Assembly (NCBI RefSeq): GCF_040938485.1 | Contig: NW_027271768.1 | Span: 248,001-312,000, forward strand | DNA length: 64,000 nucleotides | Direction: 5' to 3' | Source: Diadema antillarum | Taxonomy: Eukaryota | Shown: positions 38,788 through 47,700 of the stretch, piece by piece | Layout of the letters: every line of letters starts with the position of its first letter | Position numbering within the stretch: position 1 is the stretch's first letter | Made by a program: the position numbers

Positions 38788-41700
38788 AAGATGCTCTCAT
38801 ATTTCTTTAGAAGTAACACTTTCCGTTTCTTTACTCCTGAATCTATAATTTTTTTCCTTCATGTAAATAGTTACCAAAATACTTTGTATGAAATCAGAAT
38901 CAGATTGATTGCTTGAAAATTGGATCATCTTTGCGAGTATCAGGTGTCTGTTTTAACAACAAGTGGAAGACGTTTGGTAGCAGGAATAACTATTCCATTA
39001 TGACATCTTGAACACTGAGGGATATTTGCTCGTATTTATTTGTTTATCTATTTGAAATCATGTAATCTGCGTAAATCGCGAAACAAAATATAGAAATTTA
39101 CTAATTTGAGACTGAAAGAGTGATTATTACCTGCTACAAGTGCAGTTGCCAATTATATAAAGTACTTTTAATGAAGGAACAGGATACTTTTAGAATGAAT
39201 TATGTCACTAAAACAACGGTATGATATGACCGAACAAGGCCAAAGATGAAAGAGAGGTTTTCATATTAGTTTAAAATCTACTAACAATAAATAAAGCAAT
39301 TCTATATTATAGTGAAAAGAACGGTGCGGCATCAAACGGCAAAATGTCTTTTTTGGCATGGGTGCATGGATTTCATTCAACTGACTTTTTACGAAGGAGT
39401 TCCGAATTTCAATTACAGGCAAGAGCCTGTTATCAAAGAAGGACATATATGTACAAAGGTCTACAGTCTTTGGAACACTTCTCTAACAAGTAATTATAGG
39501 AATGAGTCTATATCACGAGTGATAGGTTCACTCAGGAGAACGATGGAATGCACGGATAACACCAATGCTGACTGGTCCATCAGAGACGCGAAGCAAGTCT
39601 ACTTAATGTTACAAGGCAGACATTGCCGTTGGTAGCTGCAGAAGATTTACCGTGTAATCAAAAGGCAATTTCAATGATAACTGAACACTCATCACACATT
39701 GGAATCATTAGACAGTTTTTATCTCTGAGTACTCTCAACTCTAAGTTAAAAAAGGAACACTTATAGAGCTGACCCCTAAATGTCACACCACAAACGTCTT
39801 TTAGCTTTACGAGAGTGACCCCGTCCCGAACACAGTGAATGTTTGAAAGTAGAGCAATCCTTTTTTCTGCAATGGTGAATAACCAACCCCTACGTTTATT
39901 CTTTACCCTAACTCTGCACAAAATATTCCAACGTGATAAAGTGAGTTCATAGATAGTTCATGAACTGACATATCAATCCTGATACTTCCGAGATTTATGG
40001 GCAAGCAAGTTTGGCATGGACCTTGTTCGTTGAAGGTTCATCGTTAGGGTAAGTACTTCATTTTGTTATTCAAATACTGCTAGCTAAGTGTAGTTATTAC
40101 GTTCGTAGTAAAACTTGCGGATTAAAAAGGTACCCGAAGAACATAATGCAGATGAAGGAGAGTACAAGTTGGAATCGAAGGAGAATATATCATCAAAACC
40201 GGACCACAATAGCAAGAACGACAAAACGACAAGCAGTAAAGATTGTCACTTTATCAGGTCTTTCAACCAGCACTTTTGACACCTTAATGCCTGCAACACA
40301 CAGCTTGATACATGTTTATACTTATCGGTCATCCGCACGAAGTTACGCAACCCTTGAATTCTGAAATAGGACTGATGTGCAGCGTTAAAAATAACAGATA
40401 CTCAGCGCATTATGTTTGAGAAATAAAGGCGAGGGTATGAAAGTCTTTTATGAAGAAGTGTCTTTTTTTAAAAGAAAATGTTCGTTTATCCGCAAACAAA
40501 ATAACCTTTGTCGTTTCGAATGTTCGTTAATCCGAAATGAAAACAAGGTGGGTATACGAACGAACTATCGGAATGACGAACTTGATTTCGTTTTCAGATT
40601 ATCGTATCTTCGGAATAACGCTTCTTTTTTTTTTTTTGGTCATTTTCGGAATAACAAACCATTGGAATAACGAAAGTAACCGTCAGGTGGCTGAACACCA
40701 GGTCGTCGACCTCCGTGCATTTTGTCATCAACTCGTCGACCGCCTTGATCGGCTCTCATGGTGGGAAACGTAGCGATGACTTTGGACAGACATCGGAGTT
40801 GACATCAGTCTGACTATCAATAGAAAATGAGGCCTTCGAGAGGAAACGCCAGAATCCACACGATCCCTTGACAGTTAGAATATTCTGTCGAATGAAGACT
40901 TACAACTTTGCTGCATCCGTTCGAGAATGACTTTCGACACGGTAGACACCCTTAACCTTGTTTAATAATGACCATGCAAAATCTTTATTGAAAATTTACC
41001 TTACTTGCAGGAGGAAGAGTTACTTCCATACTTGACCATTGATTATCTATTCCGTGTGTTTTTCTATTCTTTAGGGAGAGGAGAAAGTCGAAGGTGCTAA
41101 AACATATCACTCAATCAAATGTATTAACATGCATGGACCAATTACGTACGCGTATACACCCGAGCACATTGATGACGATCAGACTTTGTTTCATTAACAT
41201 CATTAATTATCATAGATATTTCTTGTTTTTAAAAGCTCCTGCGCATATATCCGATCTATTTATATAGCCCCTATCAACTTGCGCAGCGCGGTGATAGATT
41301 TCTCCCCCGTCAGGTCAGCAACCGATTCTTCCAGGGCCTCCTTGGTCTCAGGGGGAGCGACCAGATGTCTGAAAACCGGGTGTTCGACTTCAATGCATTT
41401 CGTAACCAAGACTTCGACCACGTCGTCTACTGAAAGGGCGGGGAACTTTGACGCTAGGTCGCAAAGGAATTTTAGCTGTCGCCTGTCGATTTCGTGAATG
41501 GTGTCGTCATTAATCAGGGCATTGCGTGTTGACAAACCCGATGGTAACATTCTTGTTTTAACGAGAGTAGGTTCAATCATGCACACCCTGTTCGGAGTAA
41601 AATGAATAAAACACATTTCAAGTTAAACATACTTTCACTATCCATAGTCATGCTTACAGGGACAGACAAAACAATATACATAAACTGTACACAGCAAGAT

Positions 41701-44737: not shown

Positions 44738-47700
44738 ACTCTCTATGTTTTCTCTCTTGTCTATGTATCTTGTCTTTGTGTCCTTGTGTGTGTTTGTTTG
44801 TGTGTGTGGTAGTCTGTTTAAAGATCTATAGGGATGGAGAAAATATCATGACGCTCTTTATCCGTGCCATATCCATTGCTTAAACATTTTTTGGAATTCT
44901 GACCAAAATAAGTTTTGACCTTAACGTAAACTTGATTTAACGTTAATCTCAGTTTTGACAACACTTTCTTTTGTGATATTTTGTTCACTAGTAATATCTC
45001 TCACATACCTAAATCTTAATTTCAATGTAGTTCCGAATAGATCTATTTCAAACTCAGTCACGAATAGATTTCAAACTGTGTATTTAGCTCATGTTGGGGA
45101 AAAAACCCAACTTCATTCCCAAATGGAAACTTGAACTTTAACCGCAATTTGATCTTGCGATTGTAATCATTATGTCCTTGTATGTGTGACCTCGGCCTGT
45201 GACCGAGTCTGTGATCGGTGCGTGACCTTTAGGCCTTCCGAAACTCAAAGCACAAAAATATTCTGGCCGTCTCACTGGAACCATGGAGCTCCTTGCTGGA
45301 ACATATCATTGGCATCGTATGCAGGGACGGAGCACACAGATGATCGCACTGCAGTCTACACCACGCCGTTGAAATTCAGGCTAGTGGCAACAGGTGAGAA
45401 TGCTATCTTTTTATGTATTTTTTTTTTTCAATGTGGGCCTACTGTGGGGCCGTGATTTGCACTCGTTGTCACAGGACCCATGATCACTCAGTGTATACAT
45501 CATGTAAAAACAAATGGAAAACGGAAGATAGAACATGAAGTGACGAACATCATGTCGCCTGTGTTCTATATGTTGGCATTGGTTAGGTATGTATTGCAGA
45601 GCAGTTTAGATTGTCAAGAAAATAAACACAGATTGAGAGAAGATACACAACATAAAAAAGGAAGGAATGACGAGAGCTCATTTGTCAAAATGACTAAAAT
45701 CAACACTGTGTTATATTTCCCTTCTAATCCAAGGAAGAACTAAATAGATGACAGTCATGTGTACTATGCAAGTAGCCACCTATTAATTATTACTATTAAT
45801 TGTTGTTATTAGTGTTAGTTTTAATATTAGTATTAATATTAATATTATAATTATTATTATCATTACTACTACTACTACTACTACTACTGTTATAAACTAA
45901 TATTAGTCCTATGATGTTGGAGCTATTAGAGAAAATGAAACAGGAGACAAGAAGTGTAAGGAGAAGTAGAAATGAAATGAGTTGGAGAAAAGAAAGTGGA
46001 TGAAAAATATATTTACCCACCACACAGTGCTGCTGTCAAGCATGTAAATGTTGTGTGAATGTAAATGAACCACTTTCACTTTAGGGCAATGTTCGTCCCT
46101 GACCTACACCATGATTGGTACCTCAATCTAAACTTTTTATCCATTCAGAAAAAAAAAATGGTATCTTGCATTCTGTTTCATCATGTTCGCAGGAACGAAC
46201 TTGGCGAACTTTATTTGGTTACTATGGCTCCTCAAGTAGTACTCGTGACTGGATGTTCGTCTGGTATTGGGCTCTGTGCTGCTCGACGTCTCGCACAAGA
46301 CCCCGATCAACGCTACCTTGTCATCGCTACCGTCATTGCCATGGCAGAAAAGGCCGAGCTGGTTGCCGCCGTAGGGGACGCTATTGATAAGACGATCTTC
46401 ATCAAGGAGATGGACATCACCAAGGATGAAGACATCACACGAGTAGTTGATGACGTCATTAAAACGCGCGGACGTATCGATATTCTCAGTGAGTATGCCC
46501 TACTTTCAAATCTGGTCTAAATATTTAGACCTTATTAACCCCGAAATGTCCAAATCAAGGAGGTTCAAGATCTGGAGTACAAAAACTGGATAGCCATTGG
46601 TAATACGCTGCCAGTTTTGTTTGGATGGATAAAAGAATTCCATATACATTGTAGGTGCATCTGTGCTTTGACTGATCGGGATTTGATGCCACCACATTGT
46701 CTTACCTGCGTAAGATTGCAACACCTTACATTAAGTAGATCAAATATGGAGGGGTTAATGAATGCTACAGAAAAAATCATTACAAGTTAAGCTTTGAGTC
46801 TGGGCACATAAAGGGTTAATAGGTTTGTACTTGACAGGTTATAATATTTGTCGTCGCAAACAAAGCGAGCAAAATACTGTCATTCCATTGTTGCTATTTA
46901 AAGAGACGGGATGGTGTCCTACCATCCCTGTGCATCATACGGTACAGTACTCATTGCAGTTCATGGTAGTAATCCCTTATGTTCGAATGACACTTTCAAT
47001 TTTCAAAAAAAAAACCAAAACACCCTTTTGACTGTTATATTTGACTGATGCTTATGAATAAGCAACACACTTTAGGAAATGTACAAATACAAGTTCTCAT
47101 TATTTTTTTACAGATTCAATGCGATGTGATGTAATCTTTGTTCAAGACAAAATATGCAGTGAAAATCAAGGGTGCTCTGACGTCATCCTTGTTTTGTCTG
47201 TTTGTTCATCTTTGTCAGTTTTTTTTTAATTTATTTAAAGCATGCCGTGACGTAATGAAGACTCGTATAGGTACAAAGACAACTCCGACGTCATCTGAAG
47301 TGGAATTGAAAAGTCTTAGCCGATAGATTTGAAATGTTTTGCCTTGACGAACTGCTCGAGATGTATTACATAGATCGTTGAAAATTTTTTTCATGTATCC
47401 ATTTTTTCAGTCAACATAGCAGGAATTGCTATCATAGGGGTCCCGGAGCGCGTGTCACGTGCCAGGATCGAGAGCATCTTTAACGTAAACACTATCGGAA
47501 CAATTCGACTCACTCAGGCGGTACTCCCTTACATGAAGCAGAAAAAGGCGGGAAAAATCATCAGTGTCTCGAGTTTGGCGGGAAAGCAAGGTATATACGA
47601 GAATAAAGTTTCGTGCATGAATTGTTGCCAAAGTACTTCATTCCAAACTTGCCATTTTTGGAAAATTATGCAAATTTGATTTTGTGAAAGATTAGTATTT

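What the first reader, a model, noticed from the sequence alone, without database searches (positions are those of the whole stretch)
41260..46488. Headless but pristine SDR copy D facing an inverted copy E: inversion-split gene or trans-splicing candidate
Seen: exons 2-4 of D are fully open with canonical splice sites, but intron-1 similarity to other copies fades ~120 bp upstream of exon 2 and no exon 0 or 1 is found on that strand. There is no gap here. The nearest exon 0/1 belong to copy E on the opposite strand, which also lacks the upstream module seen in A-C. An orphan plus-strand exon 0 sits at 63.3 kb. Inference (most parsimonious): an inversion with its left breakpoint at ~43.7-45.1 kb flipped E, the GPCR and the 5' end of D. 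Alternatives that would explain the lack of decay: (i) D is completed by trans-splicing from an opposite-strand exon 1, as established for Drosophila mod(mdg4), with the phase-1 junction being compatible across all copies; (ii) a distant minus-strand exon 1 with E and the GPCR nested in a giant intron; (iii) a segregating inversion switching D on and off.
Basis: partly seen in the sequence, partly recalled or inferred. Interest (0 to 1): 0.65.

Follow-up and report, generated by a model that had tools for sequence, protein, structure and literature searches.

The report
Recently beheaded dehydrogenase gene copy
One copy in a sea-urchin cluster of retinol-dehydrogenase-like genes has lost its first exons through a recent rearrangement but is otherwise undamaged, which is an ordinary way for a gene to start dying rather than a sign of exotic RNA splicing.

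Summary
The window is Diadema antillarum (sea urchin). It carries five "retinol dehydrogenase 8-like" SDR copies, each with coding exons of 265/180/94/328 nt. A, B, C and D lie on the minus strand and E on the plus strand.

- **D's state.** D (43555-41260, minus) has exons 2-4 with full length, open frames and canonical splice sites. It has no exon 1 and no non-coding exon 0. Sensitive searches find exactly four exon 1 copies in 64 kb, none for D.
- **D was once complete.** D. setosum has a full-length 288-aa ortholog (98/97/82% identity to D exons 2/3/4). D's branch evolved at omega 0.31, and neutrality is rejected (2dlnL = 10.1).
- **Timing.** If D is dead, simulation puts the neutral time since head loss below about 0.03 substitutions per site.
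- **Annotation.** No annotated D. antillarum protein contains D's exon 4. The annotated assembly retains both haplotypes.

Best reading: a very recent breakpoint in intron 1, somewhere in 43.67-45.25 kb. Inversion and deletion cannot be told apart inside the window. The "orphan" exon 0 at 63.3 kb may simply start a sixth annotated gene. Trans-splicing has no support here. Low interest.

The parts
43376..43555 (-). D exon 2 (180 nt, enters and leaves in phase 1). Encodes NIAG...SSLAGKQ and matches adh_short profile positions 84-141.
   Evidence: PF00106, E = 8.7e-13
42431..42524 (-). D exon 3 (94 nt), carrying the catalytic YSASK.
41260..41587 (-). D exon 4 (328 nt including the TAA stop), 108 complete codons.
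43556..43690 (-). Retained 3' end of D intron 1: polypyrimidine tract, acceptor, and a roughly 100-nt element conserved in all five copies. Similarity to C stops at 43663-43690.
43691..45253 (.). Unique spacer holding the inferred breakpoint. No exon 0 or exon 1 remnant on either strand. (CA)n/(GT)n microsatellites lie at about 44670-44810.
45333..45401 (+). E exon 0 (non-coding, donor AG|GTGAGAA).
46224..46488 (+). E exon 1, coding part (88 codons plus 1 nt). Rossmann TGCSSGIG motif, adh_short profile positions 1-81. This is the part D lacks.
47411..50150 (+). E exons 2-4 (47411-47590, 48228-48321, 49823-50150). With exon 1, E is complete and matches RefSeq protein P0006 at 100% in every exon.
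31489..37279 (-). Copy C, sister of D, complete: exon 0 about 37200-37279, then exons 36716-36452, 35035-34856, 32891-32798, 31816-31489.
63334..63402 (+). Extra exon 0 with about 130 nt of promoter-proximal similarity to A and B (63205-63415). Either the start of a sixth gene or D's displaced head. The window ends 598 nt later.
40675..40800 (-). Decayed exon-4 relic with in-frame stops. It shows what an old dead piece of this family looks like.

Best explanation
D is the body (exons 2-4) of a formerly complete retinol-dehydrogenase-8-like SDR gene of Diadema antillarum. A very recent structural rearrangement, with one breakpoint in intron 1 somewhere in 43.67-45.25 kb, separated it from its promoter, non-coding exon 0 and exon 1.

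Exon 1 encodes the whole N-terminal Rossmann cofactor-binding part. In cis, therefore, D can no longer make an active enzyme.

It looks pristine because too little time has passed for decay, not because it is being rescued. The lesion is young enough that it may still be polymorphic.

Which rearrangement it was cannot be decided inside the window. I put roughly even odds on two models:
- (a) an inversion of about 20 kb that flipped E, the GPCR and D's head;
- (b) a deletion of D's head from an older head-to-head D/E arrangement.

Shown: the anatomy, the former completeness of D, past purifying selection, and the upper bound on neutral time. Inferred: that D is now non-functional, and the kind of rearrangement.
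For: - **Missing part.** D lacks exon 1 and exon 0. Only 4 exon 1 copies exist in 64 kb, none in 43556-46223 or beyond on the minus strand. Exon 1 covers adh_short positions 1-81 including TGCSSGIG.
- **D was complete.** D. setosum P0002 is a 288-aa protein. It is 98%, 97% and 82% identical to D exons 2, 3 and 4, closer than any paralog in the window; C scores 86%, 90% and 79%. The C/D duplication therefore predates the species split, and the ancestor of D had a head.
- **D was under selection for most of its history.** In the ML branch model on 197 codons with tree ((C,D),(A,B),E), omega on D's branch is 0.31 against a background of 0.44. lnL is -2211.10, against -2216.16 with omega fixed at 1 on that branch, so 2dlnL = 10.1. 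The one-ratio model gives -2211.48.
- **No acceleration.** D has 9 unique amino-acid changes against 7 in P0002, with 5 unpolarised and 176 of 197 sites identical.
- **The loss is young if D is dead.** I used the indel-to-substitution ratio of C/D non-coding alignments (81 gap openings per 558 mismatches). The chance of keeping three open exons, five splice dinucleotides and no indel is 0.10 at K = 0.02, 0.03 at K = 0.03 and 0.003 at K = 0.05. A decayed exon-4 relic with stops 460-580 bp away shows that old pieces do decay here.
- **No rescue by annotation.** No D. antillarum protein of 59-2000 aa contains D's exon 4. The best D. antillarum hit is 79% identical and is the C type. The only D. 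antillarum short model with a head (48-154 aa) is P0015, which is the head of copy F.
- **Both haplotypes were annotated.** RefSeq annotated an uncollapsed assembly holding both haplotypes, with 12 RNA-seq runs as evidence (PMC13511894, abstract and passages).
- **Rearrangements are common in this individual.** The same paper reports 1289 deletions, 388 insertions and 15 inversions of at least 1 kb between the two haplotypes.
Against: - A perfectly intact body, with the conserved 3' end of intron 1 retained, is also what a live gene would show.
- The relative-rate test has little power. Full neutrality since the species split is only weakly disfavoured, p = 0.05-0.14 depending on the assumed omega.
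- Absence of an annotated D protein is negative evidence from a clustered database. I could not list cluster members, so I cannot show that the second haplotype covers D at all.
- No breakpoint signature was found: no target-site duplication, no inverted-repeat partner, only microsatellites. The fading of C/D similarity is not proof of a breakpoint, because C/D non-coding similarity is patchy elsewhere.
- I have no transcript data.
Confidence: 0.6

Rival explanations
1. D is a live gene completed in cis. Its first exon(s) would lie on the minus strand beyond 64 kb, with E and the GPCR nested in a giant intron, or would be a non-homologous new exon inside 43.6-45.3 kb.
For: Open exons, canonical splice sites and a retained conserved acceptor region. 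Omega is 0.31 on D's branch. There is no excess of amino-acid change relative to the intact D. setosum ortholog.
Against: No minus-strand exon 1 or exon 0 exists in the 20 kb upstream of D. A non-homologous head could not supply the Rossmann motif, which sits in exon 1 in every other copy. No annotated protein uses D's exon 4, although RNA-seq from four tissues went into the annotation. Introns in the four complete copies are at most about 5 kb.
Confidence: 0.15
2. Assembly artefact. A mis-join or haplotype switch in a low-coverage, highly heterozygous contig assembly would have removed or flipped D's head. The real chromosome would carry an intact D.
For: The public D. antillarum assembly has a modal depth of 11x, 2.52% heterozygosity, both haplotypes retained and no Hi-C. 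Its authors defer detection of inversions and misjoins. On the other haplotype contig, copy F is annotated as two half-models, P0015 (exons 1-2) and P0013 (exons 3-4). The locus is therefore structurally troublesome.
Against: There is no N run or large repeat at the junction. The only repeats are microsatellites of about 150 nt. No intact D-type protein appears from either haplotype. The authors report read-mapping support for contig integrity.
Confidence: 0.12
3. D's body is completed by trans-splicing of an exon 1 transcribed from another copy, most simply E on the opposite strand, as in Drosophila mod(mdg4).
For: All exon 1/exon 2 junctions are phase 1, and exon 1 proteins are 91-95% identical between copies, so any head would fit. 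D's acceptor region is intact and conserved. D shows no decay.
Against: Every other copy has its own head in cis, so there is no shared-5'-exon architecture. E intron 1 has 0 internal sites matching at least 8 of 9 bases of the U1-complementary consensus. That is the one mod(mdg4)-type feature I could test (feature from the abstract of PMC4387717). A promoter for D's body is unknown. Genic trans-splicing is not established in echinoderms as far as my two searches show. Youth of the lesion explains the lack of decay without it.
Confidence: 0.03
4. D is an old pseudogene kept open by gene conversion from its intact neighbours.
For: Exon 1 of A, B, C and E is homogenised (dS 0.19-0.30, against 0.41-0.71 for exons 2-4), so conversion or a similar force may act in the array.
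Against: No paralog in the window is more than 90% identical in nucleotides to any D exon. D keeps its own orthology to D. setosum P0002 (98% and 97% in exons 2 and 3), which conversion would erase. D. setosum has the gene complete.
Confidence: 0.03

Closest known systems
5'-truncated (unprocessed) pseudogenes and gene fragments at rearrangement breakpoints in tandem gene arrays
   Same: D keeps its introns and lies in the array next to its parent-like sister C. It lacks promoter and first exons, and the lesion sits at the point where array orientation changes.
   Different: D has no stop, frameshift or splice-site loss, and its branch shows omega 0.31. It is at the very start of that path, or possibly not yet on it.
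Retinol dehydrogenase 8 / 17-beta-hydroxysteroid dehydrogenase 1 type classical SDRs (names as given by RefSeq to the sea-urchin proteins)
   Same: adh_short matches for exons 1-3, the NIAG and YSASK motifs, and a length of 288 aa in the complete copies.
   Different: D lacks the TGxxxGxG exon. Orthology of the urchin array to vertebrate RDH8 was not tested. The substrate is unknown.
Drosophila mod(mdg4) / lola trans-splicing, including 3' exons encoded on the opposite strand
   Same: Only the geometry: a body without a head facing a compatible head on the other strand, with a matching intron phase.
   Different: There are no shared constitutive 5' exons serving many 3' cassettes, and no TSA-like U1 site in the donor intron. 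There is no transcript evidence, and the system is known from insects only (abstracts seen in the listing).

Membership tests
Classical short-chain dehydrogenase/reductase (Pfam adh_short PF00106) | N-terminal Rossmann cofactor motif TGxxxGxG | tested here: not met
   The motif (TGCSSGIG) lies in exon 1 (adh_short positions 1-81). D has no exon 1 in the window. A, B, C and E have it.
Classical short-chain dehydrogenase/reductase (Pfam adh_short PF00106) | NNAG-type motif, catalytic Ser and YxxxK | tested here: met
   D exon 2 starts NIAG and holds SVSSLAG. D exon 3 holds YSASK. Exon 2 matches PF00106 at E = 8.7e-13. Exon 3 matches at E = 0.0014, below the curated cut-off on its own. The motif names are recalled.
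Retinol dehydrogenase 8-like array of Diadema | Close full-length relatives named so, with the same exon plan | tested here: met
   The 11 hits to D exon 4 among proteins of 190-2000 aa are all Diadema 'retinol dehydrogenase 8-like'. A = P0010, B = P0012 and E = P0006 at 100% in every exon. C matches P0003 at 98-100%.
Unprocessed pseudogene | Loss of an essential part (promoter or first coding exon) | tested here: met
   No exon 0 or exon 1 on D's strand anywhere in 43.6-64 kb.
Unprocessed pseudogene | Disabling mutations or neutral evolution of the remaining exons | tested here: not met
   There are no stops or frameshifts and all 5 splice sites are canonical. Omega = 1 on D's branch is rejected, 2dlnL = 10.1.
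mod(mdg4)-type genic trans-splicing | Chimeric mRNA joining exons of separate transcripts | not testable with these tools
mod(mdg4)-type genic trans-splicing | Strong U1-binding motif (TSA) inside the donor intron | tested here: not met
   0 sites with at least 8 of 9 matches to CAGGTAAGT in E intron 1 (922 nt), 0 in A and B, and 1 in C. The feature comes from the abstract of PMC4387717. The consensus string is recalled and is only a proxy for the fly motif.
mod(mdg4)-type genic trans-splicing | One set of common 5' exons serving many alternative 3' cassettes | tested here: not met
   4 of the 5 copies have their own exon 0 and exon 1 in cis.

The most novel reading that the evidence does not exclude
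D is a live gene. Its intact, selected body would be joined in trans to an exon 1 transcribed from a neighbouring copy, most simply E on the opposite strand. That would be the first mod(mdg4)-like opposite-strand genic trans-splicing in a deuterostome. The near-identity of exon 1 across copies would then make sense as a shared, interchangeable head.
Probability: 0.03. Interest if true: 0.85.

Novelty: new member of a known kind. Interest (0 to 1): 0.2.

Why it matters
As it stands, this is a small annotation point. One of six RDH8-like genes of Diadema antillarum appears freshly truncated. It marks a structural difference from D. setosum in a fast-evolving tandem array.

It could serve two practical purposes:
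- a dated example of the first step of gene death;
- a structural marker for haplotype or population work in a species of conservation concern.

It would matter much more only if transcripts showed that D's exons are used.

Tried and rejected
- **Remnants of D's head.** blastn word 9, tblastn at E up to 100, and nhmmer --max with exon 1 and exon 0 profiles found nothing in 43556-46223.
- **Is the 63.3-kb exon 0 D's head?** I asked whether it resembles C's 5' region, since C is D's sister. There was no hit to C, and 64% identity over about 210-220 nt to A and B. This is inconclusive, because C's 5' region is divergent from all copies and the window ends 598 nt after the exon.
- **Inverted-repeat partners of the breakpoint region.** Only microsatellites.
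- **Rfam and tRNA scan.** One tRNA-like hit, far from D.
- **U1-site scan of the donor introns.** Negative.
- **Head-only protein that could be D's displaced head.** The one D. antillarum hit in the 48-154 aa search is the head of copy F on the other haplotype contig.
- **In-frame ATG in the retained intron.** It would give MFISFSHIDLCS-VNIAG... I rejected it as an alternative start: A and E have stops in the equivalent frame, and the product would still lack the cofactor-binding exon.
- **The GPCR at 52961-54136.** It is a 7tm_1 receptor. I saw no sign that it is an opsin, by eye only.
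Full report
**What the window is**

The window is animal DNA with spliced genes, about 37% G+C. It has two N runs, at 56689-56830 and 62247-62378, which I left alone.

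The peptide of D's exon 4 finds only sea-urchin proteins named "retinol dehydrogenase 8-like", from Diadema setosum and Diadema antillarum. Exon by exon, three copies in the window are 100% identical to D. antillarum proteins: A = P0010, B = P0012, E = P0006. C matches P0003 at 98-100%. So the window is D. antillarum. It is not human.

All database searches were made exon by exon.

**Anatomy**

There are five copies with one exon plan. Coding exons are 265, 180, 94 and 328 nt, the introns are in phases 1, 1, 2, and the product is 288 aa.

| Copy | Strand | Exon 1 | Exon 2 | Exon 3 | Exon 4 |
|---|---|---|---|---|---|
| A | - | 5657-5393 | 3852-3673 | 2624-2531 | 1163-836 |
| B | - | 26183-25919 | 23157-22978 | 18022-17929 | 16952-16607 |
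| C | - | 36716-36452 | 35035-34856 | 32891-32798 | 31816-31489 |
| D | - | none | 43555-43376 | 42524-42431 | 41587-41260 |
| E | + | 46224-46488 | 47411-47590 | 48228-48321 | 49823-50150 |

- A conserved non-coding exon 0 of about 70 nt, ending AG|GTRAGAA, lies 0.5-2 kb upstream of exon 1 in A, B, C (weak) and E.
- A fifth exon 0 sits at 63334-63402 on the plus strand.
- Pfam places exon 1 at adh_short positions 1-81 (the Rossmann cofactor-binding part, with TGCSSGIG), exon 2 at 84-141 and exon 3 at 147-172.
- A single-exon rhodopsin-family GPCR lies at 52961-54136 on the plus strand.

**Check of the observation**

It is correct.

- D's three exons have the same lengths as in the other copies, canonical AG and GT at all five sites, and no stop.
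- Exon 1 is 91-94% identical in nucleotides between copies, so a fifth copy would be easy to find. blastn, tblastn and nhmmer --max find exactly four. The next best nhmmer hit has E = 7.2.
- D aligns with C through both introns and the 3' flank: 41266-42386 with 31495-32530, 42746-43663 with 34276-35154, and 39325-39974 with 28492-29169, at 67-69% identity. That similarity ends 108-135 nt upstream of D exon 2.
- The last roughly 100 nt of intron 1 are conserved in all five copies, even in E. The point where similarity fades is therefore partly the edge of a conserved element, not in itself a breakpoint.
- The interval 43691-45253 is unique sequence apart from microsatellites.

**History of D**

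D. setosum has a full-length 288-aa protein, P0002. It is 98%, 97% and 82% identical to D exons 2, 3 and 4. D's closest paralog, C, gives 86%, 90% and 79%. So the C/D duplication is older than the two species, and D's ancestor had a head.

A codon branch model on 197 aligned codons of exons 2-4 prefers the tree ((C,D),(A,B),E).

| Model | lnL |
|---|---|
| One omega (0.42) | -2211.48 |
| Omega free on D's branch (0.31, background 0.44) | -2211.10 |
| Omega fixed at 1 on D's branch | -2216.16 |

- Neutral evolution on D's branch is rejected: 2dlnL = 10.1, about p = 0.0015 for one degree of freedom (my conversion).
- D does not differ from the background: 2dlnL = 0.76.
- Against its intact ortholog, D has 9 unique amino-acid changes to P0002's 7, with 5 unpolarised and 176 of 197 sites identical. 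This shows no acceleration. The test is weak: neutrality since the species split gives p = 0.05-0.14.

**How young must the loss be if D is now dead?**

C/D non-coding alignments have 81 gap openings per 558 mismatches. Using that ratio, I simulated neutral change of the three exons one by one. The table gives the chance of keeping all frames open, all five splice dinucleotides intact and no indel.

| Neutral substitutions per site (K) | Chance of staying intact |
|---|---|
| 0.01 | 0.32 |
| 0.02 | 0.10 |
| 0.03 | 0.03 |
| 0.05 | 0.003 |

The heterozygosity of the sequenced animal is 2.52% (abstracts). So a dead D must have lost its head on the time scale of present-day polymorphism. A decayed exon-4 relic with stops at about 40675-40800 shows that older dead pieces in this array do decay.

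**What public annotation adds**

RefSeq annotated an uncollapsed 1.75-Gb assembly that holds both haplotypes. It used 12 RNA-seq runs from four tissues (PMC13511894, abstract and passages found by term search).

- Among proteins of 190-2000 aa and of 59-189 aa, no D. antillarum protein contains D's exon 4. The best D. antillarum hit is 79% identical and is the C type.
- Contig identity below is inferred from equal contig lengths.
- On the 981,416-bp contig are A, B, E and a sixth full-length copy, F (P0007, 287 aa), which is not within bases 1-63,000 of the window.
- On a 2,004,948-bp contig, most likely the other haplotype, are a C allele (P0003, 3 of 288 residues different from the window's C) and F split into two half-models. 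P0015 holds exons 1-2 and P0013 holds exons 3-4.
- I could not list cluster members to learn more.

Two cautious inferences follow. Neither haplotype yields an intact D-type protein. And F needs an exon 0 of its own, for which the 63.3-kb copy is an obvious candidate.

**Interpretation**

The evidence fits a very recent structural cut in intron 1 that parted D's body from its promoter, exon 0 and exon 1.

- *Deletion.* Loss of D's head from an older head-to-head D/E pair explains the same anatomy. It needs no second breakpoint and predicts that the 63.3-kb exon 0 starts copy F.

The window stops 598 nt after that exon, and no eukaryotic genome collection was available. I therefore cannot choose, and I give the two about even odds within a combined confidence of 0.6.

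**The rivals**

| Rival | Confidence | Main point |
|---|---|---|
| Live D completed in cis by an unseen exon | 0.15 | No minus-strand exon 1 or exon 0 in the 20 kb upstream |
| Assembly error | 0.12 | Modal depth 11x, no Hi-C, and the authors defer misjoin detection. But there is no gap or long repeat at the junction |
| Trans-splicing | 0.03 | See below |
| Conversion-maintained old pseudogene | 0.03 | D keeps its own orthology to P0002 |

For trans-splicing, only the geometry and the phase compatibility speak for it. Each other copy has its own head. E's donor intron has no strong internal U1-type site. The youth of the lesion already explains the lack of decay.

**Comparison and novelty**

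This is a fresh 5'-truncated member of a tandem SDR array. The kind of thing is known; this instance is not described, as far as my searches show. Two of my three literature searches bear on this. I read listings and abstracts, and term-search passages in two papers, and found no mention of it.

**What stayed unchecked**

- Sequence beyond 64 kb and any transcript data.
- The D. setosum locus at the DNA level.
- The supplements of PMC13511894, which may list structural variants at this site.
- The closed collections (metagenome contigs, viral contigs), which I did not use and which would not bear on an animal locus.

Noticed in passing
window 40675-40800 (-): A decayed fragment of an SDR exon 4, with in-frame stops (about 30 recognisable residues...VDELMTKCTEVDDLVFSHL...). 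It lies 460-580 bp downstream of D's stop. Together with 39992-40111 ~ 31010-31130, it suggests a small old duplication of the exon-4 region.
   Followed up: partly
window exon 1 of A, B, C, E (5657-5393, 26183-25919, 36716-36452, 46224-46488): Exon 1 is far more alike between copies than the rest of the gene: dS 0.19-0.30 against 0.41-0.71 for exons 2-4, and 91-94% nucleotide identity. Similarity stops within about 10 nt of the donor. This suggests exon-limited homogenisation or constraint at the nucleotide level.
   Followed up: partly
public proteins P0015, P0013, P0003 (D. antillarum contig of 2,004,948 bp): On what is probably the other haplotype, the sixth copy F is annotated as two half-genes: exons 1-2 (150 aa) and exons 3-4 (151 aa). 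A C allele with 3 amino-acid differences lies on the same contig. The locus may differ structurally between haplotypes.
   Followed up: partly
window 11308-14191 (-) and 19254-22333 (+): Broken non-LTR retrotransposon reading frames (endonuclease and reverse-transcriptase-like, judged by eye). One lies between A and B. The other lies inside B's 5-kb intron 2 and accounts for the G+C-rich stretch at 18-22 kb.
   Followed up: no
window 2952-3026 (-); 2848-2945 and 3039-3097; 63416-63519 and 63617-63674: A tRNA-Ala(GGC)-like sequence in A's intron 2 (Rfam 39.1 bits). It lies beside a repeat that recurs immediately after the exon 0 at 63.3 kb, possibly a tRNA-derived SINE.
   Followed up: no
window 43556-43660 and the equivalent 3' ends of intron 1 in A, B, C, E: About 100 nt upstream of exon 2 are conserved in all five copies, with a core like GAYTGNAAAGTTTTG. 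This includes E, whose introns otherwise do not align. It may be an intronic splicing or regulatory element.
   Followed up: no
window 61167-62121; 50175-50410: A stretch of about 950 nt matches its own reverse complement at 66% identity. A roughly 210-nt inverted repeat lies just after E's stop codon.
   Followed up: no
window exon 4 of A, B, E versus D. setosum proteins: The best cross-species identity in exon 4 is only 67-70% for A, B and E, against 82% for D. Either the array turns over fast between congeners, or my search, which was seeded with D's exon 4, missed their true orthologs.
   Followed up: no
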